Shown: positions 5,705 through 53,261 of the stretch, in pieces
How the letters are laid out: each line of letters starts with the position of its first letter
Position numbering within the stretch: position 1 is the stretch's first letter
DNA from: an uncultured Fibrobacteraceae bacterium
Lineage (GTDB): Bacteria; Krumholzibacteriota; Krumholzibacteriia; LZORAL124-64-63
Assembly: GCA_964389015.1 (NCBI GenBank)
Contig: CAYMCR010000008.1
Coordinates: forward strand, 312-64,311
Direction: 5' to 3'
Length of the DNA stretch: 64,000 nucleotides
Position numbers and translations under genes: made by a program
The notes under the pieces: generated by a model
The model's database searches: none
What the model saw: only the letters and a program-made list of their open reading frames with translations
What the model was told of the DNA's origin: nothing

Positions 5705-6843
5705 GTCCGCGGGGTCCAGGTCACCAGCCGCTCACCGCGCAGGAAACGGATCAGCGCATTGCCGGCCGCGCCGTTGAGCAGGCAAAGGTAGAAGGGGAAG
5801 GACAACGGTGGGGGCAGCCGGTGATTTCTAAGCAGCAGGCCGACCAGGGCCAGCGCGTAGAAGACGGCTTGCAGGGCCAAGAGCGCATTCCAGATCGGCG
5901 CCGTCCCGACGAGGATGGCATTGGAGACCAGAGCGCCGAGCTGGAAGATCGGCGCGAGGTACCGCAGCCACTTATGGGAAAAGAGCTGCCAGGAGTAGAA
6001 CCCGTGGCGGAAGGGATTGAGCAGCATCGCCTTGTCCTTCAGGGCGTGCCAGGCGCGCAGGGCCACGCGCGTCCGCATGCGAAACTCGTCCGAGGGGACG
6101 GACAGGCTATCTTCGTAGAGCAGGGCCCGGGGCTGGAAGACGACCCGCAGGTCGCGTTGCACGATGCTGAGCGGCAGGACGAAGTCCGGCTGCTGGTCGT
6201 GCCGCATCGGGGCGTATAGCGAGGCGCGCACGGCGTCGATGCCACCGTCCACACCGACCACCGAGCCGAGCCGGGTCTCCAGTCCGCGCAGCACGTTCTC
6301 GTAACGCATGTAGGCCGAGCAGCCCTCTCCGGTCAGGGAACCGTCGGGTGCCTTGTAGACCATGCGGCCGGTCACATACCCGACCTCGGGATCGGCGAAC
6401 GGCTCGACCAGACGGCGCAGGGCCGACGGGCCGTACAAGGAGTTCGCGTCGGAGAAGACCAGCAGCTCGCCCGAGGCATTCTCCACGGCCAGATTCAGGG
6501 CGGCGGTCTTGCCCGCGCGCGGTTCCTGGCGCAAGAGACGCACCGCGCGGCCCGTCTCGTCGGCCGCCCTCCGGACGATCTCGTCCGTGCCGTCGTCCGA
6601 GGCATCGGAAACGACGATGACCTCGACCCGCTCGGGGGGATAATCCAGCGACAGCTTGTTGCGCAGCGTGCGTTCGATGCAAGCGGCTTCGTTGAAGGCG
6701 GCGATGATGATCGTCACCGTCGGCGTGCCCTCGGCGCCGCGCACGCCACGGTTGCACAGAGCCGCGATCATGGCGCACAAGGCCGGATAACCGGCGTACA
6801 CGTACACCAGCATCAACACGCAGATTGTAAAAACGATCGACAT
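5701..6843 (-). CDS. family 2 glycosyltransferase, membrane-anchored (processive/synthase-like)
   Basis: N-terminal TM helix, then IIIAAFNEA ... VVSDASDDGT (DXD) ... RVALRAW (QxxRW-like). C-terminal TM helices. Confidence 0.85.
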   Translation of the reverse strand: MSIVFTICVLMLVYVYAGYPALCAMIAALCNRGVRGAEGTPTVTIIIAAFNEAACIERTLRNKLSLDYPPERVEVIVVSDASDDGTDEIVRRAADETGRAVRLLRQEPRAGKTAALNLAVENASGELLVFSDANSLYGPSALRRLVEPFADPEVGYVTGRMVYKAPDGSLTGEGCSAYMRYENVLRGLETRLGSVVGVDGGIDAVRASLYAPMRHDQQPDFVLPLSIVQRDLRVVFQPRALLYEDSLSVPSDEFRMRTRVALRAWHALKDKAMLLNPFRHGFYSWQLFSHKWLRYLAPIFQLGALVSNAILVGTAPIWNALLALQAVFYALALVGLLLRNHRLPPPLSFPFYLCLLNGAAGNALIRFLRGERLVTWTPRT

Positions 6844-6858
6844 CCTCGAATCCTATCC

Positions 6859-7956
6859 TCAAACGACTCCGGCCCTGCGCAGCTCCTGTGCATAATGATC
6901 CTGATATTCGTCCACGCAGCTGCTCCAAGTAAAACTCGCCTCGGCGACGGTGCGGGCCCTGAGAGTCAACATCAGTCGGGTCTTGTTCTCCTCCACCAGA
7001 CGCGTCATGGCGCTGGCGAGGGCCGTCACGTTACCAGGCGGTACCAACAAACCCGTCTCGCTGTCACGCACCACTTCCAGGTTTCCGCCGACCGAAGTGG
7101 CCACCACGGCGCAGCCTCGCAACATGTACTCCAATACTGAGTTGCTGAAGCCCTCCGAGTCCGAGCACATCACGCCGACGGCCAGCTTGCCCAGATAGCC
7201 GGGCACGTCGTCGATCCGACCGGCGAACACCGTGCTGCCGGCGATGCCCAGCTCCGCGGCGAGATTCTCATACTCCGATCGCAGCTCGCCGTCCCCGATC
7301 ACGTGGAAAACGACCTCGGGGTGCCGGGTATGCATCTGAGCCGCCGCGCGCAGGAAGAGATCGGTCCTCTTGACGCGCCGGTTGAGATTGCCCACGATCC
7401 CGATCGCAACCTCGGGTTCGAGATGCTCCACGAACTGGTATTCATTCGTATCGACACCATTGTAGACTACCTTAATCCGGGATGGCTCGAGGTGGTCCTT
7501 ACGACACACATGATTCTTCACCGCTTGCGAGTTGGCCATGAACCCCGTCGCTAGCGGATAAGCCCGGCGCATCAGGAATTCCTGTAGCGGCGTTCGCCAG
7601 AAACCCAGGTCCCGGAAGGAGATCAGCCTCACCGGAGCCTTGCCCAGACGGGCGGCCGGCATGGCCAGCAGGGTCGGATCCTGGAAGAACGAGTGGACGA
7701 TGGCCACGCCCTCGGTGGAGATGTGACGGGCGAGACGGCGCACCGACGCCAGGCCCCGGGGCGACATCAGGCGCGACATGTTCAGCTCCAGGCACGGGCA
7801 ATCGACCTCGTCCAGATAATCGCTCGAGGGACGCAAGGTGCAGAGCTGCGGTTGAAAGAGTTCCCTGTCGAGACGGTTGATCAGGCCGACCAGCTGTTTC
7901 TCCGTGCCGCCACGGCCGATACTCTCGATGCAGTATAAAATCTTCTGCGAGGCCAT
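6859..7956 (-). CDS. family 4 (GT-B) glycosyltransferase
   Basis: Start chosen at MASQKILYCIES, preceded by GAGGAGA. C-terminal EGFSNSVLEYMLRGCAVVATSVGGNLEVV is the classic GT4 EX7E region. The upstream 70 codons of the long ORF lack support. Confidence 0.85.
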   Translation of the reverse strand: MASQKILYCIESIGRGGTEKQLVGLINRLDRELFQPQLCTLRPSSDYLDEVDCPCLELNMSRLMSPRGLASVRRLARHISTEGVAIVHSFFQDPTLLAMPAARLGKAPVRLISFRDLGFWRTPLQEFLMRRAYPLATGFMANSQAVKNHVCRKDHLEPSRIKVVYNGVDTNEYQFVEHLEPEVAIGIVGNLNRRVKRTDLFLRAAAQMHTRHPEVVFHVIGDGELRSEYENLAAELGIAGSTVFAGRIDDVPGYLGKLAVGVMCSDSEGFSNSVLEYMLRGCAVVATSVGGNLEVVRDSETGLLVPPGNVTALASAMTRLVEENKTRLMLTLRARTVAEASFTWSSCVDEYQDHYAQELRRAGVV

Positions 7957-8128
7957 TCTCCTCTCACGTCGACGTCCAGGCGCAGTCGGCGCGCGAACAG
8001 ACGGGTCAGTCTGCCACATGGCGACGAGGAGCGGAAGTTGTTTCCCGCTCTCGACAAAACGTACCGGACAGGTTAACTCTGAAAGCGCCGTATACAGCGG
8101 TGAACCACCAAGAAGGATCCACGACGTC

Positions 8129-9013
8129 ATGAACGACACGCCCCTGGTCTCCGTCATCACCGCCACCTACAACATGGGTCGTTACGTGGCCGACACGGTC
8201 GACTCCATCCTGGCGCAGACCCACCCGGCCGTGGAGGTCGTCGTTGTCGACGACGGCTCCACCGACGATACGCCCGCGGTGCTCGCCGGCTATGCCGATG
8301 ACCCGCGCGTGAAAACCGTGCACCAGGACAATGCGGGCCAGACCGTGGCCAAGAATCGGGGCCTCCGGGAAGCGACCGGGGAGTTCGTCGGCTTCTGCGA
8401 TGCGGACGACCTGTGGCGGCCGGACAAGCTGGCGCGGCAGTTGCCGCACTTCGCGGACGAACGCATCGGCGTGGTCTACGGCAATTTCCAATTCATCGAC
8501 GGCGCGGGACAGCCCATCGAGACCGATCGCCCGGCCACTTACAGCGGTCGCATCACGGGCGAACTGCTGGTGGACAACTTCGTCCACTTCCCCACCGCCC
8601 TGGTCAGACGCAGCATCATCGAGCGGGCGGGCGGCTTCGACGAGTCGCTGTCCATGGGCATCGACTTCGACCTCTGGCTGCGCATCTCCGTGGATCACGA
8701 ATTCCTCTACCTGCCCGACATTCTGGTCGATTATCGCATCTGGGCAGGTCAGATGTCCCATCGTACCGGCGAGCGTCTCGACAACGCCTTCAAGCTGATG
8801 CGCCGGTTCCTCGCGAACCACCCGGGCTGCGTAACCGGCGCGCAGAAGCGGAAGGCCTGGGCCCACACCTATGTGTCGCGGGGTCTCTGGAAAACGCGTC
8901 AGGGTGAGCGGGGCGCGGGCACGATCGATCTTGTTCGCGCCTGCGCGCAACGACCCTGGGATCGCCGTCTCTGGACCTCAATCACCAAGCTCTTGCTGGG
9001 ACGCCAGGTATGA
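8129..9013 (+). CDS. family 2 glycosyltransferase
   Basis: VSVITATYNMGRYVADTVDSILAQT ... VVVVDDGSTDDT. Start chosen at ATG 8129 after AGAAGGA. Confidence 0.85.
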   Translation: MNDTPLVSVITATYNMGRYVADTVDSILAQTHPAVEVVVVDDGSTDDTPAVLAGYADDPRVKTVHQDNAGQTVAKNRGLREATGEFVGFCDADDLWRPDKLARQLPHFADERIGVVYGNFQFIDGAGQPIETDRPATYSGRITGELLVDNFVHFPTALVRRSIIERAGGFDESLSMGIDFDLWLRISVDHEFLYLPDILVDYRIWAGQMSHRTGERLDNAFKLMRRFLANHPGCVTGAQKRKAWAHTYVSRGLWKTRQGERGAGTIDLVRACAQRPWDRRLWTSITKLLLGRQV

Positions 9014-9107
9014 CGACGTCGAGCAGGTGACAATTGCCTCCAAAAATGCTATAATCTTGAATCCATCCACGTTCGAACCGTCAATAACAGCGACGAGGCT
9101 TGCACCA

Positions 9108-10481
9108 ATGGCTCGTTCGAGAATTTCTATAACCTGTCTACTCACTCTGTTTGCGATTTGCGGCACGGCCACGGCCGGAACCCTGCAATCCCTCTCGCAC
9201 GATCCCGTCGATTTCATCTACAACGAGGATCGCGTCGACTGTTACTGGTCGTTCAGCGCCGGCACGGACTCCGTACAGGTCGATTTCCACGACGGCACCG
9301 TCGTCACCGTCATGCCCGACCAGACACCGTTCCGGCACATCTACGCCGACGCCGGACGTTACGACCTCACCTTCACAATCTGGGAGGACGGTGACTCCGA
9401 ACTGCACGAAGAGAGCAACTTCGTGTTCGTCCGTCAACGTCCCCTCCCCGACGGCAAATTCATGTTCGTGCACCATTCCACCGGGCGGAACATGATCACC
9501 GACGCCGGCGTGCGCAGCTTGCTGGACCTGCACAACGAACAGTTCGAAACGTCCATCGAGTTCTGGGATCACGACTACCACAGCGGCAACTCGGTTACCG
9601 GCATCATCGTGCCGGACAGCACCGTATACCACGACTGGTCCTATGGCGTGGAGGCCAACGACATCCAGCCCGGGGGATATTACACGATCTTTTGCGGGAG
9701 CAGCGCCTTCCGTGACTCGCTGTTCAGCCGCCACGACGTGATCGTCCTGAAGAACGACCACAAGACCGGCGACATCATCCACGACGGCCAGCTGGCCGCC
9801 TACAAGTACTGGTATATGCTGATCCGCGACGAGATAGACCAGTACCCGGATAAGCGCTTCGTCCTGGTCTCCGGACCGCCCCGTCGTCCCGAAGACATCA
9901 CCAACGGCGAAGCAGACCGGGCTCGCGAGTTCTACGACTGGCTGCAGAGTCCCGAGTTCATGAACGGACATGCGAACATCTCGTTCTTCGATCTGTTCGA
10001 CTACCTGGCCTACCCCGACGATCCGAGCGACCCGCAACGCAACATGCTGCGTTCGCAGTATCGCCGCCCCTACGGCATGACCGACAGCCACCCCAACGAA
10101 TACGCCAACAACGTGATCGGCCCCGTCTTCGCCGGCATGTTGATCCGTGTCGTCGATCCCTCCTGGGTCAGCATAGTGTCGGACGTCCAACTGCCCACCG
10201 CGACGCCGCGGCTCCATCCGAACCACCCCAATCCATTCAACCCCAGCACCTCGATCGCCTATGACCTGGAACGACCGGGCCTGACCGATCTGAGCATTTT
10301 CGACTTGTCGGGACGTCTGATCCGCAGCATCCTGACACCGACGATGCAGCAACCGGGCAGTTACACCCTGCGCTGGGACGGCACGGACGCTACGGGCCGT
10401 ACCCTGCCGTCCGGCGTGTACCTGTACCGCCTCTCCAGCGGGCGCACCGCGGTGAGCCGCCGCATGGTCCTGATCCGCTGA
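9108..10481 (+). CDS. secreted protein with T9SS/Por-type C-terminal sorting domain (FlgD-Ig-like); N-terminal catalytic domain unknown (HHS-G motif family)
   Basis: Signal peptide MARSRISITCLLTLFAICGTATA. The C-terminus NPFNPSTSIAYDL ... WDGTDATGRTLPSGVYLYRL ... MVLIR matches Por_Secre_tail architecture. Paralogous to the 20447..21388 product. Confidence 0.7.
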   Translation: MARSRISITCLLTLFAICGTATAGTLQSLSHDPVDFIYNEDRVDCYWSFSAGTDSVQVDFHDGTVVTVMPDQTPFRHIYADAGRYDLTFTIWEDGDSELHEESNFVFVRQRPLPDGKFMFVHHSTGRNMITDAGVRSLLDLHNEQFETSIEFWDHDYHSGNSVTGIIVPDSTVYHDWSYGVEANDIQPGGYYTIFCGSSAFRDSLFSRHDVIVLKNDHKTGDIIHDGQLAAYKYWYMLIRDEIDQYPDKRFVLVSGPPRRPEDITNGEADRAREFYDWLQSPEFMNGHANISFFDLFDYLAYPDDPSDPQRNMLRSQYRRPYGMTDSHPNEYANNVIGPVFAGMLIRVVDPSWVSIVSDVQLPTATPRLHPNHPNPFNPSTSIAYDLERPGLTDLSIFDLSGRLIRSILTPTMQQPGSYTLRWDGTDATGRTLPSGVYLYRLSSGRTAVSRRMVLIR

Positions 10482-10515: not shown

Positions 10516-11079
10516 ATGCTCCAAACCCTCAAGGAATGGTATTGGTCCATGAAGGACCCGACGGGGCGCATGTACCTGCGCTATAGCGTGGTGCGCAACT
10601 GTCCGGGATCGTACGGTTTCAGGCTGCGCGCCAATGCCCTGCGGGAGCACTTCAAGACATGCGGCGAGACACTGCGTATCCACGAAGGCGCGCGCTTCCG
10701 CAACGTGCACCGGATCGCCCTGGGCGAACACGTCACCGTGGGCGTCGACAACTTCATACAGGCCGCGGGCGGCGTGACCATCGGCGACTACACGCTGCTC
10801 GGACCGGGCGTGAAGATCTGGAGCACCAACCACGTCTTCGCAGATCCGGACCGGCTTATCCGCGAACAAGGCGCGGAGTACAAGGAAGTCGTGATCGGCC
10901 GGGACGTGTGGATCGGATCGAATACCTTCATCATGCCCGGCACCCAGCTCGGCGACGGCTGCATCGTATCGGCCGGCTCGGTGGTCGGCGCCAAGAAGTA
11001 TCCCCCCTACAACATCCTGATGGGCAATCCCGCCCGGGTGATCGGCAACCGGAAGAAGCGTGCCGATGACGGGGATTGA
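10516..11079 (+). CDS. hexapeptide-repeat (left-handed beta-helix) O-acetyltransferase, WcaF/maltose-acetyltransferase-like
   Basis: 187 aa. Repeated [LIV]G-x4 hexapeptides (VGVDNFIQAAGGVTIGDYTLLGPGVKIW ... IGSNTFIMPGTQLGDGCIVSAGSVVG). Confidence 0.85.
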   Translation: MLQTLKEWYWSMKDPTGRMYLRYSVVRNCPGSYGFRLRANALREHFKTCGETLRIHEGARFRNVHRIALGEHVTVGVDNFIQAAGGVTIGDYTLLGPGVKIWSTNHVFADPDRLIREQGAEYKEVVIGRDVWIGSNTFIMPGTQLGDGCIVSAGSVVGAKKYPPYNILMGNPARVIGNRKKRADDGD

Positions 11080-12829
11080 AAATCTCGACAGCCTGCTCGA
11101 TGAGACCGCGAACGCCTCCCTGCCGGAGTTGCTCGATCGCCTCGCTGCCGCCTTGCCGGCCGAGCCCGACAAGCGCGCCCGCATCGCCGAACTGGTGGAC
11201 GAGTCCCGGACGGCCTGGCAATGGCTGCTGGGTGGCCGTCGTCGCGGCCACATCCTGCACATCTCGGGCGGTTGGAACGCGAGCGCCGTGGCCCTGGCGC
11301 GGGTCTGGGAGAAGGTCACCGTGCTCGAGAGTTCGGCGGCGGCCTTGCGCGTGCTCGAAAGGAGGATCGCCGACGGGGATCTCCACAACCTGGAACTGAT
11401 CCCCGGCGACGGCAACGGGCACCTGCCCTGCGCAGACGCAGTTTTCGACGCCGTCTGCTGGACGGCGGCTCCCGGCACACGCGTCCCCTGTGCCACGCCG
11501 GACATGGCCTACGATCTCGAGCCTCTGCTGCGTGAGGCGACGCGCGTGCTGAAACCGGACGGGGAGTTGTTCCTGGGATTGCCGAATCGATGGCGCCGCA
11601 GCCATCTCCTGCAGAAGGGCGATCCACCGCTCTACACCCTGCGCAACGTCATGCGGACCCTGCACAAGGCGGGCTACAAGCTCCACTCGCTGCACGCCCA
11701 CGAGAACGAGTACGAACAGGAACGCATCTTCGTGGATCTGGCCGACAAGTCGGCCATCCGCGCCTTCCAGAAACAGCATCCGGGCCGTGGCCGGCTCCTG
11801 CCCCTCTGGTTCTACCGCCGCATGGCGCCCCAGTACGCCATCGTCGCCGGACCGGGCCGGGCCAGAACATCCTGGCTGACCGGCGCCCTGAACTCCGTTC
11901 GCCGGCAACTGGGAGCCCTCGACGACGACTGGACCGTTTCACCGCCCGCGGTGAACCGCAAGGGCAAGCTGGTGTCCGTGCTGTCGCGCAGGAAAAGACC
12001 CGCGTGGATCGTGAAGATCCCCCTGCGTCCGATAACGAGAGCCGGCGTGGAAAACGCCCATCGCATATTGGCGGGATTGTCGGCCCACCTGGCCGACGAT
12101 GACATCCTCGCGGGCCTGCTGCCCAACAACCTCCGCCGTCTCGAATTCGAGGGCATGCCCATCTATGTGGAATCGGCTTGCCCCGGCAAGCCCTGGGCCG
12201 ATTTCCGGAAACGGCCGCCACACGTGCTGGACACCAATCTTCCGGATGTTCTCACACGCCTGCTGCAACTGGACGCGGCCGACCTTGGCCTCACCGAGGC
12301 ATCAGACGCCCTGACCCCCAAGGTGGATCACCTCAAGAGATTGCTGGCGCGGCACGCGCCCGACCTGGTCCCGGTGATGGCCGCCGTCGGCGAGAAACTG
12401 GATGCCGCCGGGACCGGCCGCCCCTTGAAGCTGCGCAAGGGCGACATGACCCTGAGCAACGTCTTCCTGGTCGGCGGGCACGTTTCGGGTCTCATCGACT
12501 GGGACGAGACCGAGACCAGTCGGCTGCCCCTGGCCACCTACGCCGACCTGCTCTTCTCGTGGCTTTGGCAGCGTGAGGGGATGCGCAGGGCCGACGGGCT
12601 GGCGATGCTGGCCGGCGGCGCGTTCGACGACATGCCCAGGGCGCTGGCCGTGCGCGAGACTCTCTCCCGGCTGGATTGCGACGCGGACGATCTCGCCGCC
12701 GGCGCCGTCGCGTCCTGGTTGGACCACGCCTATCACGAACTCATGCATCCCGTGTTCAGGTATCAGCCCGACCGCCTCCGGGGCTTGCTGGTGGAACCCT
12801 GCCGGGCGCTGGCCCGTCTGTGGGGGTAA
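11060..12829 (+). CDS. bifunctional methyltransferase / protein-kinase-like (APH-fold) phosphotransferase, WbdD-like
   Basis: 589 aa. The N-terminal half has a class I SAM-MTase-like core (ILHISGGWNA ... VLKPDGELFLGLPNRW). The C-terminal half has kinase-fold motifs: WIVKIPL (beta3 Lys), LRKGDMTLSNVFL (catalytic loop, H.D...N) and IDWDE (DFG-equivalent). Confidence 0.6.
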   Translation: MPMTGIENLDSLLDETANASLPELLDRLAAALPAEPDKRARIAELVDESRTAWQWLLGGRRRGHILHISGGWNASAVALARVWEKVTVLESSAAALRVLERRIADGDLHNLELIPGDGNGHLPCADAVFDAVCWTAAPGTRVPCATPDMAYDLEPLLREATRVLKPDGELFLGLPNRWRRSHLLQKGDPPLYTLRNVMRTLHKAGYKLHSLHAHENEYEQERIFVDLADKSAIRAFQKQHPGRGRLLPLWFYRRMAPQYAIVAGPGRARTSWLTGALNSVRRQLGALDDDWTVSPPAVNRKGKLVSVLSRRKRPAWIVKIPLRPITRAGVENAHRILAGLSAHLADDDILAGLLPNNLRRLEFEGMPIYVESACPGKPWADFRKRPPHVLDTNLPDVLTRLLQLDAADLGLTEASDALTPKVDHLKRLLARHAPDLVPVMAAVGEKLDAAGTGRPLKLRKGDMTLSNVFLVGGHVSGLIDWDETETSRLPLATYADLLFSWLWQREGMRRADGLAMLAGGAFDDMPRALAVRETLSRLDCDADDLAAGAVASWLDHAYHELMHPVFRYQPDRLRGLLVEPCRALARLWG

Positions 12830-12872: not shown

Positions 12873-14078
12873 TCATGCTCCCGGCGTTGCAGATCCAGCG
12901 CCGGGGACATTGTCAGCGACAGAACTCTCGAGATAGACGGCTTCGTAGCAGCCGGTCATTCCTTCAAGCGTGTACCTGCGCCTCTGTTCACGAGCAGCCG
13001 AGGCACCGAGCCGTACGGCGAGATCCCGGTCAAGCATCAGTCGACGGCAGGCCGTGGCAATGGCTCCCGCATCTCGGCAGGGAAAGAGAAGTCCGGTCTC
13101 ACCATCGACCAGGACTTCGTCCAGGCCGCCCACCTGCGATGCCAGCACGGGCAATCCCAGCGACATGGCTTCGAGCAGCGTGTAGGGAAGACCTTCATGA
13201 AGCGAGGGCATGAGCAGGGCGTCCAAGTGAGCCATGATCTCGTACACATCCCGGCGGAAACCGAGGAAAACCACCCTGTCTGAAACGCCGAACTCCCGCG
13301 CACACCTGCGGAGATGTTCCTCCTGTGGGCCCGAGCCGACGACGACGCAACGCGCGGCCGGGGGCATATCCGGCGAAGCCAGCGCCCTGAGAGCGTATTC
13401 GATCCCTTTCACTTCCGATACACGCCCCACGATGCCGAAGTTGAAGCCGCCGGCCGGCACGCCATCGGGTCTGACCGCCCCGGTCCGTTCGAGCGGTGCG
13501 ATGCCGTTGGGAACAGTATGCCGGACGAGTCCTGCGTGAGCGTGATCGAAACGGGACCGGATATCATCGGTGACATAACAGACCGTGGCCTGAAGACGTC
13601 GCGTCGCCCAGCGATCGAGGAGATGGTTCCACTTCGCCTTTACGGTGTCAAAGGGCCGGTTCCGCATCGGCTCCGGCAATCCGTGTTCGGTTTTCACGAC
13701 CGGCGGCAGCTGATAACCCCGGATCGCCGCGACCGCCAGCGTCACCATGGCACGGTAGCCATGTGCGTGTACAACCATGGCATTTCGGTTCTCGAAGTAT
13801 CGCGCTAGATGTGTGGCGGCGGCAGGGTCGTAGCGGTGGCGTGCCTCGATGATGTGGACGTCGCCCCCCGCGGAACCGATCCGCCTCGCCAGCTCGCCCT
13901 CGTGAAACAGCAATACCGCCGGTTCGCGTCCGATACGCTCGCTCAATTTCCCGTGAAGATCCACAACTTGGCGTTCGACCCCTCCGTACAGCTCGCCTGG
14001 GGCGAGGATGACGGGTCCGGACGCAGCCACGTCCACATCGCCGAACGGTTTCGAGTTAGCCTTCACCTTATCCTCCAT
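12873..14078 (-). CDS. family 4 glycosyltransferase
   Basis: 401 aa. C-terminal LHEGLPYTLLEAMSLGLPVLASQVGGLDEVL (EX7E). Confidence 0.88.
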   Translation of the reverse strand: MEDKVKANSKPFGDVDVAASGPVILAPGELYGGVERQVVDLHGKLSERIGREPAVLLFHEGELARRIGSAGGDVHIIEARHRYDPAAATHLARYFENRNAMVVHAHGYRAMVTLAVAAIRGYQLPPVVKTEHGLPEPMRNRPFDTVKAKWNHLLDRWATRRLQATVCYVTDDIRSRFDHAHAGLVRHTVPNGIAPLERTGAVRPDGVPAGGFNFGIVGRVSEVKGIEYALRALASPDMPPAARCVVVGSGPQEEHLRRCAREFGVSDRVVFLGFRRDVYEIMAHLDALLMPSLHEGLPYTLLEAMSLGLPVLASQVGGLDEVLVDGETGLLFPCRDAGAIATACRRLMLDRDLAVRLGASAAREQRRRYTLEGMTGCYEAVYLESSVADNVPGAGSATPGA

Positions 14079-14130
14079 GTATCATGACGCACACTGATAT
14101 GGACAACCATTTCCTGGAGGAGCGATCTCC

Positions 14131-15474
14131 GTGGTGAATCTCCGTCATCTCCTGTGGGGCAGGCTGATAATGCCTCTCGGTGGGCTTGCGACACGCCAAC
14201 CTGTGGCCAAGTACCTCGCATACTATCAGGAAAGTCAATACTGGCCTCGGGAAATAATCGCAGCCGAACGTGATCGCGCACTCCACGAGACGATCAAGGT
14301 CGCCTATCAAGAGGTTCCCTTCTATCGCGACCTCTATCGCGAACATGGCGTACATCCCCGTGACATCCTGTGTGCCGACGATATGCACAAGCTGCCCGTC
14401 GTGACGAAGCAGATGTTGTCGGCCGCTTATCCCGACCGCTGTCTCCGTCACACGGGTTTCCCCACCGAGGAGCAAGCTACGAGCGGATCGACGGGACAGC
14501 CCTTCCGCAGCATGATCGACACGGATTCGCAGGCACGAGCGCGTGCCTTGATGTTCCTCAGGGCGATGATGAGCGGCTACAAGCCCGGCGACGCCATGGT
14601 GCAGACAGGCATATCCGGAAACCGGCATGGGCTCAAGGGCTGGAAAGACCGACTACTGGCCATCACATATGTGCCGACGGTGGATCTGAGCGACTCTGCC
14701 CTGGACAAGGCCCTGCATTCGATGGTCAGTCGGCGAGCACGTTATCTCATGGGCACCGCACAGAGCATGCACCTCTTGGCGATGAGGGCGATCGAGGTCG
14801 GGACCCGCCATCGGCTCGCCGGTGCGGTCTCGTGGGGAAGTCATCTGCTGCCTCAACACCGGTACGCGATCCAGGAGGCGTTCGGCTGTCGCACGATCGA
14901 CACGTACGGCGTTTCGGAGGGTATGCAGGTTGCGTCGCAATGCGGCGAAGACCATGGAGAATATCACCTGTTCGCCCTCCACGTGTTCACCGAGTTCTGC
15001 CACGACGGACACCCCGTCCCCACAGGTGAAACGGGCGAGGTGCTGCTGACCCGACTCAACCCCGGAGTTATGCCGTTCATTCGCTACCAGGTAGGTGACC
15101 TCGGCCGAGCTTCGACCCGCAAGACCTGTCCCTGTGAACGGACATTGCCGATGATGGCGAGCCTCGTCGGTCGAACGGCCGATATCATCCTCACGCCCCG
15201 GGGCAACAGGCTCACGGTGCACTTCTTCAGCCATCTCTTCGGACAGATGTCTGAAATACGGAGCTTCCAGGTCCATCAGACGACAAGCGACCACCTGCAC
15301 CTCCTGATTGCCACAGACGGCCCGGCCGATGCTCGCGCCTCCGACACCATTCGTGATCTTATTAAAAACGAGGGAGATCCGGACTTGCAAATCACAATAG
15401 AGTGGGTGGACGAAATTCAACTGGAAATGACGGGCAAGCAGAAATACATTGTATCAACAGTGGAACTTCAATGA
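14131..15474 (+). CDS. PaaK/CapK-like adenylate-forming enzyme (second copy)
   Basis: 447 aa. TSGSTGQPF motif. Same family architecture as 4331..5704, but the two sequences are clearly diverged, so this is not a recent duplicate. GTG start preceded by GGAGG. Confidence 0.75.
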   Translation: MVNLRHLLWGRLIMPLGGLATRQPVAKYLAYYQESQYWPREIIAAERDRALHETIKVAYQEVPFYRDLYREHGVHPRDILCADDMHKLPVVTKQMLSAAYPDRCLRHTGFPTEEQATSGSTGQPFRSMIDTDSQARARALMFLRAMMSGYKPGDAMVQTGISGNRHGLKGWKDRLLAITYVPTVDLSDSALDKALHSMVSRRARYLMGTAQSMHLLAMRAIEVGTRHRLAGAVSWGSHLLPQHRYAIQEAFGCRTIDTYGVSEGMQVASQCGEDHGEYHLFALHVFTEFCHDGHPVPTGETGEVLLTRLNPGVMPFIRYQVGDLGRASTRKTCPCERTLPMMASLVGRTADIILTPRGNRLTVHFFSHLFGQMSEIRSFQVHQTTSDHLHLLIATDGPADARASDTIRDLIKNEGDPDLQITIEWVDEIQLEMTGKQKYIVSTVELQ

Positions 15475-15588
15475 TCATGATGCATTCCACGGGAATTGCC
15501 ATACGCAGAAACATGGTCTCGATCTTGCTAGAGGAGTTTGGAGCTGCTACGTGAGAGCTGGCTCCGGGGCTCGCAGGAGGTCTGCATT

Positions 15589-16701
15589 TTGAGGGTCAGA
15601 GGATGGATCGGCTTCACCGTGGTCTTGATCACAGCTACGACTGTTATAGCACAGCCGATCGTTCAATCCGTGACAGGTGATTTCACGGATGGCACCACCA
15701 TCGCGATCGAAGGCATGGGGTTCGGCACGAAACCGACCCAGCAACCCTATCTATGGGACACACTGTCCAATCAGTCCGGATACGTGGATCGTGAGCTCCA
15801 GCACGGCGACATCATCCCCTCCACCCAGGGCGATTGGGGACTTTCGCCTTGCCCGGACTGCCCTTGGGATGTGAATCAACCCAACTGGACCTCCCCGATG
15901 AGGTACTGGGACCAGAATCACCGTGTCCCGGGTCGGCCGTTCTACCGGGTCGAGCGGAAGGGCTATTTCCGCATGTCCGACTGGGGCGACACCTTACCGG
16001 ACCGGGTCTACTTGAATTGGTGGTTCCGCACTTCGGCTCCCGATCTCACCGTCGGTTCCAACAAGTTCGTGCGGCTCTGGGCGGATACAGAAAGACCCGA
16101 GGGCTCGGTCTCGTGGACGGGGATGCACCTCACCTACACCGCGGACGCGAACCACGACGGCGTCAACGACGGCGGTGAAGGTCACGTGACCACCTGGGGG
16201 AACTGGGGCGGTTCCTCTGGCAGCTGGCACAACCTCGAAATGGTCTACGATGGGCAAGGCGATATCCAGCACGGCTACGGCACGTTGCGCATCTACCGCG
16301 ACGGCCGCCTGGTCCATGCCGTGAACGACGCCTTCGGCGAGCTCCCCTGGAACCGTCTCTACGTGTTCGGGTTCGATGCCTCGGTCGGTGAGCCCTTCGC
16401 GGGGGAGACCTTCGATTTCTCCGACATCTATATCGATACGAGCCTGGCTCGCGTCGTCGTGGGCAATGCCGCGCAGTACGCGAACGTGACACACCAGGAA
16501 GTGCAGATCCCCCAGAGCTGGAATACGGACTCCATCAACGTGACTGTCAACTCGGGTTCCTTCGCACCCAGCGAGGATTTATGGTTGTTCGTCTTCGATG
16601 TGGATGGTGAAGTGAACCCCGTAGGCCACTCCGTCACCACGCCCGATATCCCCGATGACGGCCCGCCCGGCATGCCGGGTCAACCGGTCCGGAATATATA
16701 G
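15589..16701 (+). CDS. secreted protein, possible polysaccharide-acting enzyme (concanavalin-like/lyase-like fold guessed); likely TTG start
   Basis: The in-frame TTG at 15589 is preceded by GGAGG with an 8-nt spacer and yields the signal peptide MRVRGWIGFTVVLITATTVIAQP. The long ORF from 15538 lacks an RBS. No T9SS tail. No close family recognised by eye. Confidence 0.5.
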   Translation: MRVRGWIGFTVVLITATTVIAQPIVQSVTGDFTDGTTIAIEGMGFGTKPTQQPYLWDTLSNQSGYVDRELQHGDIIPSTQGDWGLSPCPDCPWDVNQPNWTSPMRYWDQNHRVPGRPFYRVERKGYFRMSDWGDTLPDRVYLNWWFRTSAPDLTVGSNKFVRLWADTERPEGSVSWTGMHLTYTADANHDGVNDGGEGHVTTWGNWGGSSGSWHNLEMVYDGQGDIQHGYGTLRIYRDGRLVHAVNDAFGELPWNRLYVFGFDASVGEPFAGETFDFSDIYIDTSLARVVVGNAAQYANVTHQEVQIPQSWNTDSINVTVNSGSFAPSEDLWLFVFDVDGEVNPVGHSVTTPDIPDDGPPGMPGQPVRNI

Positions 16702-16708
16702 AGTCGGA

Positions 16709-17692
16709 TCAGAGAGCCGCGACTCTGTCGATGAGCTCCTCAAACCTGGGCTTCCACTCGCTTAGCAAGCGCTCTCGCAGTTCCTCGACTGCCTGGGCTC
16801 TCTGCGTGCGTTCCTCGAGAGCCTGGCACAAGGTGGCGGCAATCGTTTCCGGATCGAGAGAAGTGAACAGCACACCGCTGTTGAAGTACTCGCGCAGGGC
16901 ATGCGTATCGGCTAGGACCAGGGGTTTGCCGAGAGCCACGGCTTCGTAGGCGCTGCACAGCAGCGTGTGGTCCTGACGCGTGAGAGCCAGCACGACATCC
17001 ACTGACTTGAGCAACGACTGGAAGTCCGTCTCGTGCAGGTAGCCTGTGAGTCGCACATTGTCGGGCACACTGGACAACAGGGCCGGACTCAGGCGGGAAT
17101 CGTCGCCGGTGATATGGAGAGTCACCCCGTCCGGCAGGTATTTCGCCGCGTCGAGAACCGCTTCCACCGGTTCATCGGCACTGAATGAATTCACCCAGGC
17201 GATGTTCGAGCGGCCGCTCAGGGAGACGGCATCTCCCGCCGTCAGGGTCGGCATCATATCCTGAAGAACGTACGGTCTGCCACCCCAGCCCTCGACGATC
17301 CCGGCAAGATGCCCGTTCGTCACGATCGTCAGATCCGCCCTGGCCACGGTCATGCGACTCAGGGCGTGAAAGAGCCTGTACTTCAGCGAACGGCTCTCCA
17401 TCGTAGGGAACTTGAAGTTCGAGTGCCGATCGATGACGAGCCTGTAGCCGAACAACGGTTTCAGCCAGCAGACCAGGCCGGCCAGTGCCATCGACGGGTT
17501 CTGAACGACGAGGCGTCGCGGCCGTTTCGAGAGCAGAACGAGCAGAGTCCGCAGCGAAAGCAAGAGAACCTTCAGACTGTAGATCCTCACCGGCCTGAAA
17601 CGGTAGAGAGGGATCTCGAGCGCCTTGGCGAGCGTCTCCGTACGCCTTTGCTGCTCCCAAGTTATCCAAATCGTGTCGGCCAGACAGCTCAT
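16709..17692 (-). CDS. GT4-like glycosyltransferase (GT-B fold, retaining-type C-terminal domain)
   Basis: Start taken at MSCLADTIWITWEQQ. The upstream 55 codons of the ORF (MITIYTCATTV...) have no coding-like character. The C-terminal half matches the GT-B nucleotide-binding domain pattern (VLALTRQDHTLLCSAYEAVALGKPLVLADT). Confidence 0.6.
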   Translation of the reverse strand: MSCLADTIWITWEQQRRTETLAKALEIPLYRFRPVRIYSLKVLLLSLRTLLVLLSKRPRRLVVQNPSMALAGLVCWLKPLFGYRLVIDRHSNFKFPTMESRSLKYRLFHALSRMTVARADLTIVTNGHLAGIVEGWGGRPYVLQDMMPTLTAGDAVSLSGRSNIAWVNSFSADEPVEAVLDAAKYLPDGVTLHITGDDSRLSPALLSSVPDNVRLTGYLHETDFQSLLKSVDVVLALTRQDHTLLCSAYEAVALGKPLVLADTHALREYFNSGVLFTSLDPETIAATLCQALEERTQRAQAVEELRERLLSEWKPRFEELIDRVAAL

Positions 17693-17729
17693 CGTTGACA
17701 CCCGGTCGAGGTAAATGATGGAGACGTGT

Positions 17730-19030: not shown

Positions 19031-20413
19031 TCATTCCGGCGTCACCGCCTCCAATTGCGACACCAGATAGCGCGAGCCCCGGCGCATTTCCTTCGCGATG
19101 TAGACCAGATTGAAGGCCAGACCCGCGCCGAACCACCAGTAAGGCTCGTAGAGATCCATGCCGAACATGCCGAGCGCCAGCCTGATCACGATGAAACCGC
19201 TGGCGGCGATCGAGACCCCCCGCATGAAACGCAGGTCGCTCGACCAGGACTCGCATTCACGCCGGAGCTTGCCAGGCGGTTTTCGTTTGCGGGCCGCCCT
19301 GGCCAGGGCGCGCATCTGCGCCTCGAAACTGCGCTGGGCGGATCGATAGGCACGCATCAGGGAAACGAGCAGGAACACGAAAACGACCACCCCCTGCACG
19401 CCGAGGTTCGTAGCCACCTCGAGGTACAGGTTGTGGGTGTCCTGCTTGCGCCCGAACTTGCGCATGCGTACGGCGGGAAACGAGGCGATGCCAACGCCGC
19501 CCGGATTGGCGAGGAAGATAGCGGTCGCGTCCTGGAGGATCTCGATCCGCTTCTCCTTGGAATGCCCCTCCGCCTCCTGACCGCCGATGCTCTTGAACCT
19601 CTCCACATACTGTTCGGGGAGCAGGGGTATCGCCAGGCTGATCAGCAGCACGGCGATGACGGCGCTACGAAACTTCTTTCGCGTTTGGGACCACCAGAAC
19701 AGGATCAGCACCGCGAAGGCCACATAGCCGGTCCGGGAGCCCGAGAACAGCACGCAGGTGGATGCTGTGCCCACCAGCGGCAGCAGCGGCAGACGATAGA
19801 GCCACCTCTTGATCGCCGGGAACAGGAAGAAGCAGAACGGCAACGTCCCCATGGCGACGCCGGCCAGGCTGTTGGGATGGGCATAGATGGGCACAGCGCC
19901 GTGCAATCGCATCACGCCCTGGTTCTGCCAGACCAAGCCGCCGGAAATGAGCCCGCGCGTGGATTCCTGCGTGACGTAGAAACAGGCGAAGAGAAATGCA
20001 CCCATGAACAACCGCATGGCCCGCGGTGACCGGATCAGCACCACCATGAAGAACGTGAGCATTGCGAATTTGATGACCCGATCGATGAAGATGGAATTGG
20101 CCAGCTCCTTGTCGGCGGCGAAGGGAATCTGGATTATCATCACGGCGAACAGCAGCGCGATGCCGATCAGCACGTTCCTGGCGGTCTTGAGCGTACCGAA
20201 CTTCACGGGACTGGCGGAGATCAGGAAAGCGCAGGCTACCGCCAGCACCAGCCCGAACACGAACTCGATGCGCAGGGTCTTGAAGATCTCCCGGCGCGCG
20301 CCCCACTGCATGTACCTGGCCACGACGAAGATCAGGAAGGTCGCGGTGACGAACAGCGGCGCCTCCCAGTAGCGTGGGAGGCGCAAGCGGCCGGTTTTGA
20401 TACGCTGCATCAT
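19031..20413 (-). CDS. O-antigen ligase/polymerase (Wzy_C) family membrane protein
   Basis: 460 aa with about 10-12 TM segments, a periplasmic loop carrying the DTHNLYLEVATNLG motif (the H-N-x-Y-L hallmark of Wzy_C/WaaL), and a basic cytoplasmic tail. Confidence 0.8.
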   Translation of the reverse strand: MMQRIKTGRLRLPRYWEAPLFVTATFLIFVVARYMQWGARREIFKTLRIEFVFGLVLAVACAFLISASPVKFGTLKTARNVLIGIALLFAVMIIQIPFAADKELANSIFIDRVIKFAMLTFFMVVLIRSPRAMRLFMGAFLFACFYVTQESTRGLISGGLVWQNQGVMRLHGAVPIYAHPNSLAGVAMGTLPFCFFLFPAIKRWLYRLPLLPLVGTASTCVLFSGSRTGYVAFAVLILFWWSQTRKKFRSAVIAVLLISLAIPLLPEQYVERFKSIGGQEAEGHSKEKRIEILQDATAIFLANPGGVGIASFPAVRMRKFGRKQDTHNLYLEVATNLGVQGVVVFVFLLVSLMRAYRSAQRSFEAQMRALARAARKRKPPGKLRRECESWSSDLRFMRGVSIAASGFIVIRLALGMFGMDLYEPYWWFGAGLAFNLVYIAKEMRRGSRYLVSQLEAVTPE

Positions 20414-38775: not shown

Positions 38776-38856
38776 ACGGCTTATTATACAGTGGTGGAGC
38801 GGTGGGATAGAGGGCGGTTAGCTTCCCCATTCCCCTGTCGCCCGCAAAGGAAAGCC

Positions 38857-49469: not shown

Positions 49470-53261
<3,792 letters not shown>

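What the first reader, a model, noticed from the sequence alone, without database searches (positions are those of the whole stretch)
11060..12829. WbdD-like methyltransferase-kinase fusion inside the polysaccharide locus (possible chain-end capping enzyme)
A single 589-aa protein carries a SAM-methyltransferase-like N-terminal half and an APH/eukaryotic-like kinase-fold C-terminal half. The kinase half has a VAIK-like WIVKIPL strand, an HxD-like catalytic loop LRKGDMTLSN and a DFG-like IDWDE. In E. coli O9a the bifunctional WbdD phosphorylates and then methylates the non-reducing end of the O-polysaccharide to stop polymerisation. A fusion of the same two activities here suggests phosphate or methyl-phosphate decoration or length control of this glycan. 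The gene sits beside a Wzy-type polymerase rather than an ABC exporter, which would be an unusual pairing.
Basis: inference. Interest (0 to 1): 0.6.

Follow-up and report, generated by a model that had tools for sequence, protein, structure and literature searches.

The report
Methyltransferase–kinase fusion in a glycan locus
A real, conserved gene in a sugar-polymer locus encodes one protein joining a methyltransferase to an antibiotic-kinase-type kinase; it has the same domain order as the E. coli chain-capping enzyme WbdD but is not related to it and lacks its length-measuring parts, so it more likely decorates the glycan.

Summary
ORF 11060-12829 (+) encodes 589 aa, with the likely true start at ATG 11066. 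It is a real gene with an N-terminal class I SAM-methyltransferase and a C-terminal APH-type kinase.

The WbdD reading is only partly supported.
- Domain order matches, and WbdD is the only solved structure that aligns over both halves.
- Profile comparison with authentic WbdD finds only the generic Rossmann core.
- WbdD's kinase resembles eukaryotic protein kinases. This one resembles aminoglycoside and macrolide phosphotransferases.
- There is no C-terminal coiled coil.
- No ABC exporter was found among the ORFs scanned in the 64-kb window, nor by BLAST in 11 syntenic relatives.

The gene is translationally coupled to an O-acetyltransferase. It belongs to an uncharacterised family of at least 145 clusters that sits mainly in Wzx/Wzy_C-type glycan loci. 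Two distant members lie beside Wzm/Wzt(Wzt_C) exporters.

Most likely it is a cytoplasmic enzyme that phosphorylates and methylates a lipid-linked glycan, possibly forming methyl phosphate. That would be decoration, not ruler-type termination. Verdict: new variant of a known kind, moderate interest.

The parts
11060..12829 (+). Whole ORF of the methyltransferase-kinase fusion. It is 589 aa from GTG 11060, and probably 587 aa from ATG 11066. The stop codon TAA is at 12827-12829.
   Evidence: ORF list; GC3 0.85; homologues at 31-76% identity with the same architecture, starting at MTG; sequence at the start and stop.
11060..11851 (+). N-terminal half (aa 1-264). It comprises a helical lid (aa 9-56), a seven-stranded class I Rossmann methyltransferase core (aa ~60-226) and a linker.
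   Evidence: Pfam Methyltransf_11 matches aa 68-171 at 32.8 bits, above the cut-off. The profile hits PDB methyltransferases, e.g. 3BUS at 1.9e-12. The AF2 strand order is E64-68, 85-90, 111-115, 129-135, 164-176, 207-215, 221-226.
11252..11278 (+). Methyltransferase motif I, ILHISGGWN. It is atypical: the family consensus is vLDlGCGwG. Here Asp is replaced by His, the first Gly by Ser and the third Gly by Asn.
   Evidence: Translation; column counts over 146 family members give G69 119/146, G71 118/146 and G73 101/146.
11852..12826 (+). C-terminal half (aa 265-589): a bilobal APH/MPH-type small-molecule kinase domain. The protein ends directly after the C-lobe helices, with no coiled-coil extension.
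   Evidence: AF2 model of this half alone has pLDDT 92.9. All top-50 Foldseek PDB hits are APH(2''), APH(3'), MPH, homoserine kinase II, APH(4), Rv3168 or 25-hydroxysteroid kinase, with TM 0.46-0.61. Profile hits to 5IGH and 1ND4.
12005..12025 (+). The beta3 'VAIK-like' strand WIVKIPL, carrying the nucleotide-binding Lys319.
   Evidence: Translation. The position is K in 104 and R in 34 of 146 members. It aligns with the 'rrWVLRIP' strand of MPH(2')-I.
12431..12460 (+). Catalytic loop LRKGDMTLSN, with catalytic Asp462 and Mg-ligand Asn467.
   Evidence: Translation. D462 is conserved in 144/146 and N467 in 145/146; position 460 is H in 96 and K in 47. It aligns with HGDLYVGHV of MPH and HGDACLPN of APH(3')-IIa.
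12494..12508 (+). The DFG-equivalent motif IDWDE, with Mg-binding Asp480.
   Evidence: Translation. D480 is conserved in 143/146 and W481 in 122/146. It aligns with GMIDWSE of MPH(2')-I.
10516..11079 (+). Upstream hexapeptide-repeat O-acetyltransferase (WbbJ/WcaF/Maa-like). Its 3' end overlaps the start of the target, so it is a translationally coupled partner gene.
   Evidence: Pfam Hexapep at 4.3e-15. Best NCBIfam similarities are WbbJ, maltose and galactoside O-acetyltransferases and WcaF. A Hexapep gene is next to the fusion gene in L001-L004 and in L019, L020, L021 and L027. tblastn places it directly upstream of the fusion in L006-L013, L015 and L016.
8871..10481 (+). Upstream co-directional gene for a secreted protein with a T9SS type-A C-terminal sorting domain. 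The true start is probably further downstream, because homologues are 455-457 aa.
   Evidence: NCBIfam Por_Secre_tail scores 28.5 bits against a cut-off of 23, and Pfam FlgD_ig also hits. The gene is conserved upstream of the acetyltransferase in relatives.
12873..14078 (-). Convergent downstream GT4 glycosyltransferase, 43 nt from the target's stop codon.
   Evidence: Pfam Glycos_transf_1 at 2.1e-35. It is found at the same position in all relatives whose sequence extends that far.
19031..20413 (-). Wzy_C-domain membrane protein with at least 8 hydrophobic segments. It could be a polymerase or a ligase; this is the locus's only Wzy/WaaL-family protein.
   Evidence: Pfam Wzy_C at 2.9e-18. NCBIfam TIGR03097 'putative O-glycosylation ligase' scores 72 bits, below its cut-off. 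Hydrophobic-segment scan.

Best explanation
The gene encodes a soluble cytoplasmic bifunctional enzyme that modifies the glycan made by the surrounding ~20-kb locus (about 3.4-23.2 kb, between ispF and tyrS).

The C-terminal APH-type kinase uses ATP or GTP. Lys319 binds the nucleotide, Asp462 is the catalytic base, and Asn467 and Asp480 bind Mg. It would phosphorylate a sugar hydroxyl on the polyprenol-linked glycan or repeat unit. The fused N-terminal SAM-methyltransferase then methylates that phosphate or a neighbouring group. Methylating the phosphate would give a methyl-phosphate substituent, the chemistry shown for WbdD and for K. pneumoniae O7 ORF6.

The enzyme is co-expressed with an O-acetyltransferase to which it is translationally coupled. 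The three activities together decorate the glycan before export. It is not a WbdD-type ruler or terminator. It is an independently evolved fusion from an uncharacterised family.

Shown: gene reality, both folds, conserved catalytic residues, synteny, and absence of WbdD-specific features. Inferred: the substrate (lipid-linked glycan), the order of reactions and the methyl-phosphate product.
For: Fold and catalytic residues:
- Methyltransferase fold above the Pfam cut-off; profile hits to PDB methyltransferases.
- APH/MPH-type kinase shown by profile hits, Pfam APH in 5/17 homologues and the Foldseek top 50.
- The full-length AF2 model has pLDDT 89.5 and pTM 0.88, which implies a fixed two-domain arrangement.
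- Kinase residues D462, N467 and D480 are conserved in 143-145 of 146 representatives. MTase residues D130, E159, R162, G168 and N176 are >=90% conserved and R177 is 87%. Both halves are therefore under purifying selection.
- No TM segment was found.

Gene neighbourhood:
- The 14-nt overlap with the acetyltransferase is conserved.
- The block T9SS-CTD protein -> Hexapep -> fusion <- GT4 is seen in full or in part in all 11 window-clade loci.
- Relatives at 27-32% identity are still next to a Hexapep gene, in loci with a Wzx flippase, GT4/GT2 and CapK-like ligases, and in one case Wzy_C.
- All 10 independent contexts outside the window clade are glycan loci.

Precedent: two unrelated MTase-kinase fusions both make methyl phosphate on glycans. 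These are WbdD (PMC3482155) and ORF6 of K. pneumoniae O7, which has an APH-like AmiN-type kinase (PMC11231755).
Against: - No biochemical data exist for any family member, so the substrate and product are inferred from context and analogy.
- Motif I of the methyltransferase deviates from the family consensus in the window clade (S69, H67, N73). The post-I acidic residue is Gly in 3 of 17 close homologues. The MTase half may therefore be weakened.
- The window protein itself does not reach any Pfam APH score.
- The locus has no recognisable flippase or exporter, so the assembly pathway is not established.
- APH-type kinases usually act on free small molecules, so a precursor-level substrate is not excluded.
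Confidence: 0.55

Rival explanations
1. True functional analogue of WbdD. The enzyme caps the non-reducing end of the polymer with phosphate or methyl phosphate and thereby stops elongation or marks the chain for export or ligation.
For: - The domain order is the same, and WbdD is the only solved structure aligned across both domains (E 2e-8, 590 columns).
- Two distant family members (P0203, P0199) lie 2-3 genes from Wzm plus Wzt carrying the Wzt_C cap-binding module. The family as a whole may therefore include real terminators.
- PF04932 (Wzy_C) also covers WaaL-type ligases, so the Wzy_C protein at 19031-20413 could be a ligase rather than a polymerase.
Against: - There is no coiled-coil or ruler. 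The protein ends with the kinase C-lobe, and the family's median C-terminal extension is -4 aa.
- No ABC transporter or Wzt_C was found among the ORFs scanned in the 64-kb window, nor by BLAST in 11 syntenic relatives.
- The ABC-context members belong to the other (HGD) subfamily and share only ~15-25% identity with the window protein.
- The closest relatives outside the clade sit with Wzx flippases. In such pathways chains grow at the reducing end, so a cytoplasmic cap cannot terminate polymerisation (established Wzx/Wzy mechanism).
- The superposition on WbdD is poor (TM 0.23-0.30, rmsd ~21 A).
Confidence: 0.15
2. Precursor-level enzyme. The kinase phosphorylates a free small molecule, and the MTase methylates that precursor. 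The small molecule could be an anomeric sugar hydroxyl (as for NahK/AmgK) or an amino alcohol (as for choline/ethanolamine kinase). One example would be phosphoethanolamine converted to phosphocholine, which is then transferred to the glycan.
For: - All the closest structures are small-molecule kinases.
- One distant member also hits Pfam Choline_kinase (P0213).
- The Methyltransf_11 fold is the one used by phosphoethanolamine N-methyltransferases (general knowledge).
Against: - No nucleotidyltransferase (LicC/MurU-like) or LicD-type transferase appears in the window locus, or in 9 of the 10 other family contexts examined. Only L026 has an NTP_transferase.
- The constant neighbours are glycosyltransferases and an O-acetyltransferase, not activation enzymes.
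Confidence: 0.15
3. Kinase-only enzyme. The methyltransferase half of the window clade has lost SAM binding and serves only as a scaffold, so the product is a plain phosphate on the glycan.
For: - Motif I in the window protein is ILHISGGWN against the family consensus vLDlGCGwG.
- Motif I is variable among the 16 closest homologues (SGGW, SNGL, WGGW, SGAW, DAGW and others).
- The post-I acidic residue is Gly in 3 of 17.
Against: - E90, D130, E159, R162, G168 and N176-R177 are retained in the window protein.
- The MTase half is about as conserved as the kinase half among close homologues.
- Pfam still scores it above the cut-off.
- Active methyltransferases with a non-Gly first position in motif I are known (general knowledge, e.g. 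glycine N-methyltransferase 'VACGTG').
Confidence: 0.1
4. An antibiotic-resistance phosphotransferase (aminoglycoside or macrolide kinase) that happens to lie in the locus.
For: The best sequence and structure matches of the kinase half are MPH(2'), APH(3'), APH(2'') and APH(4).
Against: - Identity to these enzymes is only 10-20% with TM ~0.5-0.6. That is superfamily-level similarity.
- The fusion to a methyltransferase is obligate across at least 145 clusters.
- Synteny inside glycan loci and coupling to an acetyltransferase are conserved from 72% down to 27% identity.
Confidence: 0.03

Closest known systems
WbdD of E. coli O9a / K. pneumoniae O3 (PDB 4AX8, 4AZS, 4AZT, 4UW0): a bifunctional kinase-methyltransferase O-antigen chain terminator
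   Same: It is one polypeptide with an N-terminal class I SAM-methyltransferase followed by a protein-kinase-like fold domain, encoded in a glycan locus. It is the only solved structure that aligns over both domains of the model. A plausible shared chemistry is phosphorylation of a sugar hydroxyl followed by methylation of the phosphate (PMC3482155).
   Different: - No sequence relationship exists beyond the generic Rossmann core.
- WbdD's kinase is eukaryotic-protein-kinase-like (Src/ROCK; PMC3482155), whereas this one is APH/MPH-like.
- WbdD has a ~250-aa C-terminal coiled coil and membrane/WbdA-binding region that acts as a ruler. There is none here.
- WbdD works with Wzm/Wzt. No ABC exporter was found here.
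- The predicted domain arrangement differs (rmsd ~21 A, TM 0.23-0.30).
ORF6 (N-terminal module) of the K. pneumoniae O7 O-antigen cluster: a methyltransferase-kinase methylphosphate terminator (PMC11231755)
   Same: A methyltransferase is followed by a kinase of the aminoglycoside-kinase type (closest to AmiN) rather than the WbdD type. It was shown in vitro to phosphorylate and then methylate a glycan acceptor. This shows that MTase plus APH-like kinase fusions can make methyl phosphate.
   Different: - ORF6 is a 1414-aa protein with a CBM, a coiled coil and two GT2 polymerase modules, and it belongs to an ABC-transporter pathway (PMC11231755).
- Its kinase segment is only 223 aa and had no recognisable sequence similarity to known kinases. 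This one is ~325 aa with clear APH motifs.
- AmiN is not among the PDB sequences matched by the kinase profile at E<=1, nor in the Foldseek top 50.
APH / MPH phosphotransferase enzyme family (Pfam PF01636; e.g. MPH(2')-I 5IGH, APH(3')-IIa 1ND4, APH(4)-Ia 3W0M, homoserine kinase II 2PPQ)
   Same: It shares the bilobal fold, the beta3 Lys, the catalytic loop (H/K)GDxxxxN and the IDW(D/E) Mg-binding motif. These are the best sequence-profile and structure matches of the C-terminal half.
   Different: - Identity is only 10-20%.
- The window protein itself is below Pfam detection.
- His is replaced by Lys before the catalytic Gly-Asp in this subfamily (46 of 145 representatives).
- It is always fused to a methyltransferase and embedded in glycan loci, not in resistance contexts.
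Uncharacterised 'SAM-dependent methyltransferase / aminoglycoside phosphotransferase' fusion proteins of metagenome-assembled genomes (names given by JGI/NCBI sources)
   Same: This is the protein's actual family. There are 170 clusters (50% identity) at E<=1e-30, and 145 of the sequences examined cover both domains. Members at 27-40% identity share the architecture, the catalytic residues and the glycan-locus context.
   Different: - Most members (82/145) carry an extra N-terminal Zn-ribbon (Trm112-like) that the window clade lacks.
- Most have a canonical motif I.
- A few are fused to GT2 or a second MTase and reach 934-1007 aa.
- No member has been studied experimentally, as far as four literature searches show.

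Membership tests
WbdD-type chain terminator | N-terminal class I methyltransferase followed by a kinase-fold domain in one polypeptide | tested here: met
   Pfam Methyltransf_11 at aa 68-171; kinase half at aa 265-589; AF2 full-length model.
WbdD-type chain terminator | Detectable sequence homology to WbdD over both domains | tested here: not met
   BLASTP gives no alignment better than E=1.1. hhalign with A1 gives 0.9% probability. With the 146-sequence profile only 97 Rossmann-core columns align (82%) and the kinase does not align. WbdD is absent from the PDB profile hits listed.
WbdD-type chain terminator | Kinase domain of the eukaryotic protein-kinase type (Src/ROCK-like) | tested here: not met
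   WbdD's sequence hits CBK1, STK38 and DMPK (PMC3482155). For the kinase half here, all top-50 Foldseek hits are APH/MPH-type small-molecule kinases and WbdD is not among them.
WbdD-type chain terminator | Long C-terminal coiled coil (WbdD aa 460-708) that oligomerises and sets chain length | tested here: not met
   The protein ends at aa 589 with packed C-lobe helices at pLDDT ~95. The family-wide median C-terminal extension beyond the profile is -4 aa, with a single outlier.
WbdD-type chain terminator | Operates with an ABC exporter whose Wzt carries a cap-binding C-terminal module | tested here: not met
   No ABC2_membrane, ABC_tran or Wzt_C was found among the locus ORFs or the other large ORFs scanned in the window. 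There are no tblastn hits to Wzm/Wzt in the window or in loci L006-L016. This feature is met only for the distant family members P0203 and P0199.
WbdD-type chain terminator | Phosphorylates and then methylates the non-reducing terminal sugar, stopping polymerisation | not testable with these tools
   This requires enzyme assays and glycan structure determination.
APH phosphotransferase enzyme family (PF01636) | Match to the Pfam model at its threshold | tested here: inconclusive
   The window protein has no hit at E<=10. Five of 17 close homologues hit, with a best E-value of 4.2e-9. Many distant family members carry a precomputed PF01636 hit.
APH phosphotransferase enzyme family (PF01636) | Bilobal APH fold | tested here: met
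   Foldseek gives APH(2'')-Ib 4DCA at E 1.9e-7, APH(3')-IIa 1ND4 at TM 0.55/0.68, APH(4) 3W0P at TM 0.60/0.65 and MPH 8IXI at TM 0.57/0.61.
APH phosphotransferase enzyme family (PF01636) | Catalytic loop (H)GDxxxxN and downstream (I)D(W/F) Mg-binding Asp, plus the beta3 Lys | tested here: met
   KGDMTLSN and IDWDE align with HGDLYVGH/IDWSE of MPH(2')-I and HGDACLPN/ID of APH(3')-IIa. Conservation is 143-145 of 146. His is replaced by Lys in this subfamily.
Class I SAM-dependent methyltransferase (Methyltransf_11/25) | Pfam match above the gathering score and a seven-strand Rossmann core | tested here: met
   32.8 bits against 21.2, and 28.7 against 27; strand order in the AF2 model; PDB MTase hits.
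Class I SAM-dependent methyltransferase (Methyltransf_11/25) | Motif I glycine-rich loop (E/D)xGxGxG | tested here: inconclusive
   The window has H-I-S-G-G-W-N. Only the middle Gly is retained, whereas the family consensus is D-l-G-C-G-w-G. Whether SAM still binds cannot be decided in silico.
Class I SAM-dependent methyltransferase (Methyltransf_11/25) | Acidic residue at the end of beta2 (post-I) and Asp of motif II | tested here: met
   E90 is present (D/E in 124/146) and D130 is present (139/146).
K. pneumoniae O7 ORF6-N type terminator | MTase plus AmiN-like kinase joined to a CBM, a coiled coil and GT2 polymerase modules in an ABC-transporter locus | tested here: not met
   The 589-aa protein has no CBM, coiled coil or GT module. 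AmiN is not among the kinase hits. No ABC transporter was found. Features are taken from PMC11231755. The ORF6 sequence itself was not compared.

The most novel reading that the evidence does not exclude
This protein represents a third, independently evolved lineage of methyltransferase-kinase enzymes that install methyl phosphate on bacterial glycans. Unlike WbdD and ORF6-O7, its 'KGD' subfamily has been recruited to flippase/Wzy_C-type (non-ABC) assembly in uncultured FCB-group bacteria. There it would place methyl phosphate, together with O-acetyl, on every repeat unit or on a defined oligosaccharide. In distant 'HGD' cousins next to Wzm/Wzt(Wzt_C), the same module would act as a ruler-less chain cap.
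Probability: 0.3. Interest if true: 0.7.

Novelty: new variant of a known kind. Interest (0 to 1): 0.5.

Why it matters
Methyl phosphate is known on bacterial glycans only as the chain-end cap of a few ABC-transporter-dependent O antigens. It is made there by two unrelated methyltransferase-kinase fusions.

This family would be a third fusion type. It is widespread, with at least 145 clusters at 50% identity. It is built from an antibiotic-kinase-type domain and is found mostly in flippase-dependent loci. If confirmed, that would show the chemistry is more common and more versatile than thought, serving as decoration as well as termination.

The family would also give glycobiologists a sequence marker for predicting phosphorylated or methyl-phosphorylated glycans in uncultured bacteria. 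It is also a caution for resistome annotation, because these APH-like domains are not resistance genes.

Tried and rejected
- Direct homology to WbdD. I located authentic wbdD in E. coli HS between wzt and wbdA and confirmed it against PDB 4AZS. BLASTP and two hhalign runs found only the generic MTase core, so homology was rejected.
ORF 14131-15474 is a soluble PaaK/CapK-like ligase, so this was rejected. The Wzy_C protein is 6 kb away.
- Search for an exporter or flippase. Pfam scans of 40 ORFs across the window and tblastn with Wzx, Wzm and Wzt from related loci found none. The only candidate is a MatE-type transporter at 28414-29820, outside the locus. The pathway type of the window locus stays unresolved.
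- Phosphocholine and NDP-sugar salvage readings. No LicC, LicD or nucleotidyltransferase was found in the loci, so these are kept only as a low-probability rival.
- Antibiotic-resistance reading. Rejected on context and low identity.
- Literature. Four full-text searches found no paper on this fusion family.
- The ORF6-O7 sequence could not be obtained, so that comparison is indirect.

Full report

Yes. The ORF 11060..12829 (+), 589 aa with a GTG start, is present. Its GC content by codon position is 0.71/0.48/0.85, typical of genuine genes in this ~64% GC sequence. A search of 5.8 billion proteins returned 18 relatives. Sixteen have the same length and architecture at 31-72% identity, one is a 503-aa partial at 76%, and one is a 100%-identical fragment.

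The homologues begin at 'MTG', which is codon 3 here. The true start is therefore probably ATG 11066, preceded by GGAAGAAG. That start overlaps the last 14 nt of the upstream acetyltransferase gene, and the same 14-nt overlap is seen in locus L001.

**2. What the two halves are.**

N-terminal half:
- It passes the Pfam gathering thresholds for Methyltransf_11 (32.8 bits against 21.2) and Methyltransf_25.
- A 17-sequence profile hits many solved class I methyltransferases, for example 3BUS at 1.9e-12.

C-terminal half:
- It is below Pfam detection in the window protein itself.
- Five of 17 homologues hit PF01636 (APH).
- The profile hits macrolide 2'-phosphotransferase (1.3e-6) and APH(3')-IIa (4e-5). 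KGDLTLSN aligns with HGDLYVGH, and GLIDWDE aligns with GMIDWSE.

Structure models:
- The AlphaFold2 full-length model is confident (pLDDT 89.5, pTM 0.88).
- The kinase half alone gives pLDDT 92.9.
- Its 50 best Foldseek matches in the PDB are all small-molecule kinases of the APH superfamily. They include APH(2''), APH(3'), APH(4), MPH, homoserine kinase II, Rv3168 and a 25-hydroxysteroid kinase, with TM 0.46-0.61.

**3. The family.**

An exhaustive HMM search of 1.84 billion cluster representatives found 170 proteins at E<=1e-30. Of the 166 sequences I examined, 145 cover both domains.

Conservation across 146 aligned members:
- Kinase catalytic residues are almost invariant: D462 144/146, N467 145/146, D480 143/146, G461 135/146, and K/R319 138/146.
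- Methyltransferase positions D130, E159, R162, G168 and N176 are >=90% conserved, and R177 is 87%. The Asn176-Arg177 pair is family-specific.
- Both halves are therefore maintained by selection.

Other family features:
- The median length is 670 aa.
- 82 of 145 members carry an N-terminal double-CxxC Zn ribbon that the window clade lacks.
- There is essentially no C-terminal extension (median -4 aa).
- The catalytic loop divides the family into a 'KGD' subfamily (46 representatives, including the window clade and its nearest relatives) and an 'HGD' subfamily (96 representatives).
- In the window clade, motif I is atypical. It reads ILHISGGWN against the consensus vLDlGCGwG, and it varies among close homologues. 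The post-I acidic residue (E90) is replaced by Gly in 3 of 17. The methyltransferase may be weakened there, although the remaining motifs are intact.

**4. Comparison with WbdD.**

I retrieved authentic wbdD from E. coli HS (O9). It lies between wzt and wbdA, and it matches PDB 4AZS/4AX8 at E=0.

- BLASTP against the window protein finds nothing.
- hhalign with the 17-sequence profile gives 0.9% probability.
- With the 146-sequence profile (Neff 7.2), only 97 columns of the Rossmann core align (82%) and no kinase columns align.
- WbdD's own kinase hits eukaryotic Ser/Thr kinases, as its structure paper reports (PMC3482155).
- That paper also describes the C-terminal coiled-coil region (aa 460-708) as part of the architecture. 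Nothing equivalent exists here.
- WbdD does appear at rank 5 and rank 48 in the full-length Foldseek search and is the only two-domain hit. But the superposition is poor (TM 0.23-0.30, rmsd ~21 A, 12% identity). This reflects shared domain order, not a shared arrangement.

Conclusion: the architecture is analogous, but the fusion arose independently.

**5. Genomic context.**

The gene lies in a ~20-kb glycan locus between ispF and tyrS. The locus contains:
- three GT2 and three GT4 glycosyltransferases;
- two PaaK/CapK-like ligases;
- a KamA-type aminomutase;
- a Wzy_C membrane protein;
- secreted proteins with Big_5 or T9SS domains.

The target is the last gene of a co-directional block: GT2 -> T9SS-CTD protein -> O-acetyltransferase -> fusion. 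A convergent GT4 faces it. The whole cysS-to-tyrS arrangement is syntenic in MAGs at 72% and 44% identity. The core block is seen, in full or in part, in all 11 window-clade loci recovered from GTDB genomes. Most of those records are labelled uncultured Fibrobacteraceae or simply 'bacterium'.

No ABC transporter was found among the ORFs scanned in the window. No Wzx was found either, although one syntenic relative (L015) carries a Wzx just upstream of the block.

Outside the clade I examined 10 independent contexts. All are glycan loci:
- Seven contain a Wzx flippase: L019, L020, L021, L022, L023, L026 and L027. Several also have Wzy_C. In the four nearest relatives (27-32% identity: L019, L020, L021, L027) a hexapeptide acetyltransferase is again adjacent to the fusion gene.
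- Two (L024 and L025, both HGD subfamily, ~15-25% identity) lie 2-3 genes from Wzm plus a Wzt carrying the Wzt_C cap-recognition domain.
- One (L028) is next to a GT-C/PMT_2 glycosyltransferase.

**6. Most likely mechanism.**

The protein has no TM segment, so it acts in the cytoplasm. Its constant partners are glycosyltransferases and an O-acetyltransferase, not sugar-activation enzymes.

Two unrelated methyltransferase-kinase fusions have been shown to phosphorylate a terminal sugar and then methylate the phosphate. These are WbdD (PMC3482155) and ORF6 of K. pneumoniae O7, whose kinase is AmiN/APH-like (PMC11231755).

By analogy, I propose the following (inference). This enzyme phosphorylates a hydroxyl of the polyprenol-linked glycan, using D462 as the catalytic base and N467/D480 to bind Mg. 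Its MTase domain then methylates that phosphate or a neighbouring group.

The clade and its nearest relatives are associated with Wzx/Wzy_C-type genes, and the protein lacks a ruler and a Wzt partner. In flippase-dependent assembly, chains grow at the reducing end in the periplasm (established mechanism). A cytoplasmic modification there is therefore a repeat-unit or oligosaccharide decoration, not a chain terminator. The distant HGD members next to Wzt_C exporters may be genuine caps.

**7. Rivals and limits.**

Not excluded, but less likely:
- a true capping role;
- a precursor-level small-molecule kinase/MTase (no nucleotidyltransferase or LicD partners were found);
- a kinase-only enzyme with a decayed MTase.

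An antibiotic-resistance role is very unlikely.

Limits of the analysis:
- The ORF6-O7 sequence could not be compared.
- Four literature searches found no study of this family.
- All functional statements beyond fold, motifs and context are inference.

**8. Verdict.**

The protein is a member of an uncharacterised, fairly widespread MTase-APH-kinase fusion family of glycan loci. It is a new variant of the known 'methyltransferase-kinase glycan modifier' theme, not a WbdD family member. Interest is moderate (0.5). It would rise if methyl-phosphate decoration in a non-ABC pathway were demonstrated.

Noticed in passing
window 17730-18848 (-), 4331-5704 (-), 14131-15474 (+): A KamA-family radical-SAM 2,3-aminomutase and two PaaK/CapK-like adenylate-forming ligases sit inside the glycan locus. 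This suggests a beta-amino acid is made and attached by an amide bond to the glycan. The aminomutase gave no tblastn hit in any syntenic relative.
   Followed up: partly
window ~14100-18850: The segment between the conserved GT4 and the Wzy_C gene differs between the window and its relatives L001-L004. GC content dips to 0.585 at 14-16 kb against ~0.65 on either side. It looks like a variable, possibly exchanged cassette of the locus.
   Followed up: partly
window 8871-10481 (+), 49470-53339 (-), 56406-58694 (-): Three secreted proteins carry FlgD_ig-type C-terminal domains, and the first passes the NCBIfam T9SS type-A sorting-domain cut-off. One is in the same operon-like block as the target and is conserved there in relatives. 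The others are an S8 subtilase with a P-domain and a papain-like C1 protease with CBM53. A link between this glycan and T9SS cargo anchoring is conceivable but was not tested.
   Followed up: no
L024 5300-7498 and 10001-11839; L025 4752-7075 and 10001-12052: Distant family members P0203 and P0199 lie 2-3 genes downstream of Wzm and a Wzt with the Wzt_C cap-binding domain. They are candidates for ruler-less chain terminators of a new type.
   Followed up: partly
L015 6084-7340: One relative with the same syntenic block (CapK 65%, T9SS-CTD 58%, Hexapep 74%) carries a Wzx-like flippase directly upstream of the block, where the window has a GT2. The window has no Wzx hit anywhere in its 64 kb.
   Followed up: partly
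family alignment (positions 319 and 460 of the window protein): The family splits into a 'KGD' catalytic-loop subfamily (46 representatives, nearly all with Lys319) and an 'HGD' subfamily (96 representatives, Lys or Arg at 319). In the contexts sampled, the KGD members were the ones next to hexapeptide acetyltransferases.
   Followed up: partly
window 7877-9013 (+), 6859-8166 (-), 8871-10481 (+), 16709-17857 (-): The mechanical ORF starts are probably too far upstream. The GT2 domain starts at aa 92 and its homologue is 294 aa. The GT4 homologue is 365 aa against 435 here. The T9SS-CTD homologue is 457 aa against 536 here. The GT4 at 16709-17857 overlaps the aminomutase gene by 128 nt.
   Followed up: no
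window 5701-6843 (-): A GT2 (Glyco_tranf_2_3/Glyco_transf_21-like) has hydrophobic segments at aa 1-30 and 299-340. It could be a membrane-embedded synthase-like or polyprenol-phosphate glycosyltransferase, which is relevant to how this locus exports its product.
   Followed up: no
window 38110-41823 (+): A DUF4254 protein is followed by a 1010-aa protein whose only Pfam match is a C-terminal GlnD-type uridylyltransferase domain. It appears unrelated to the finding.
   Followed up: no
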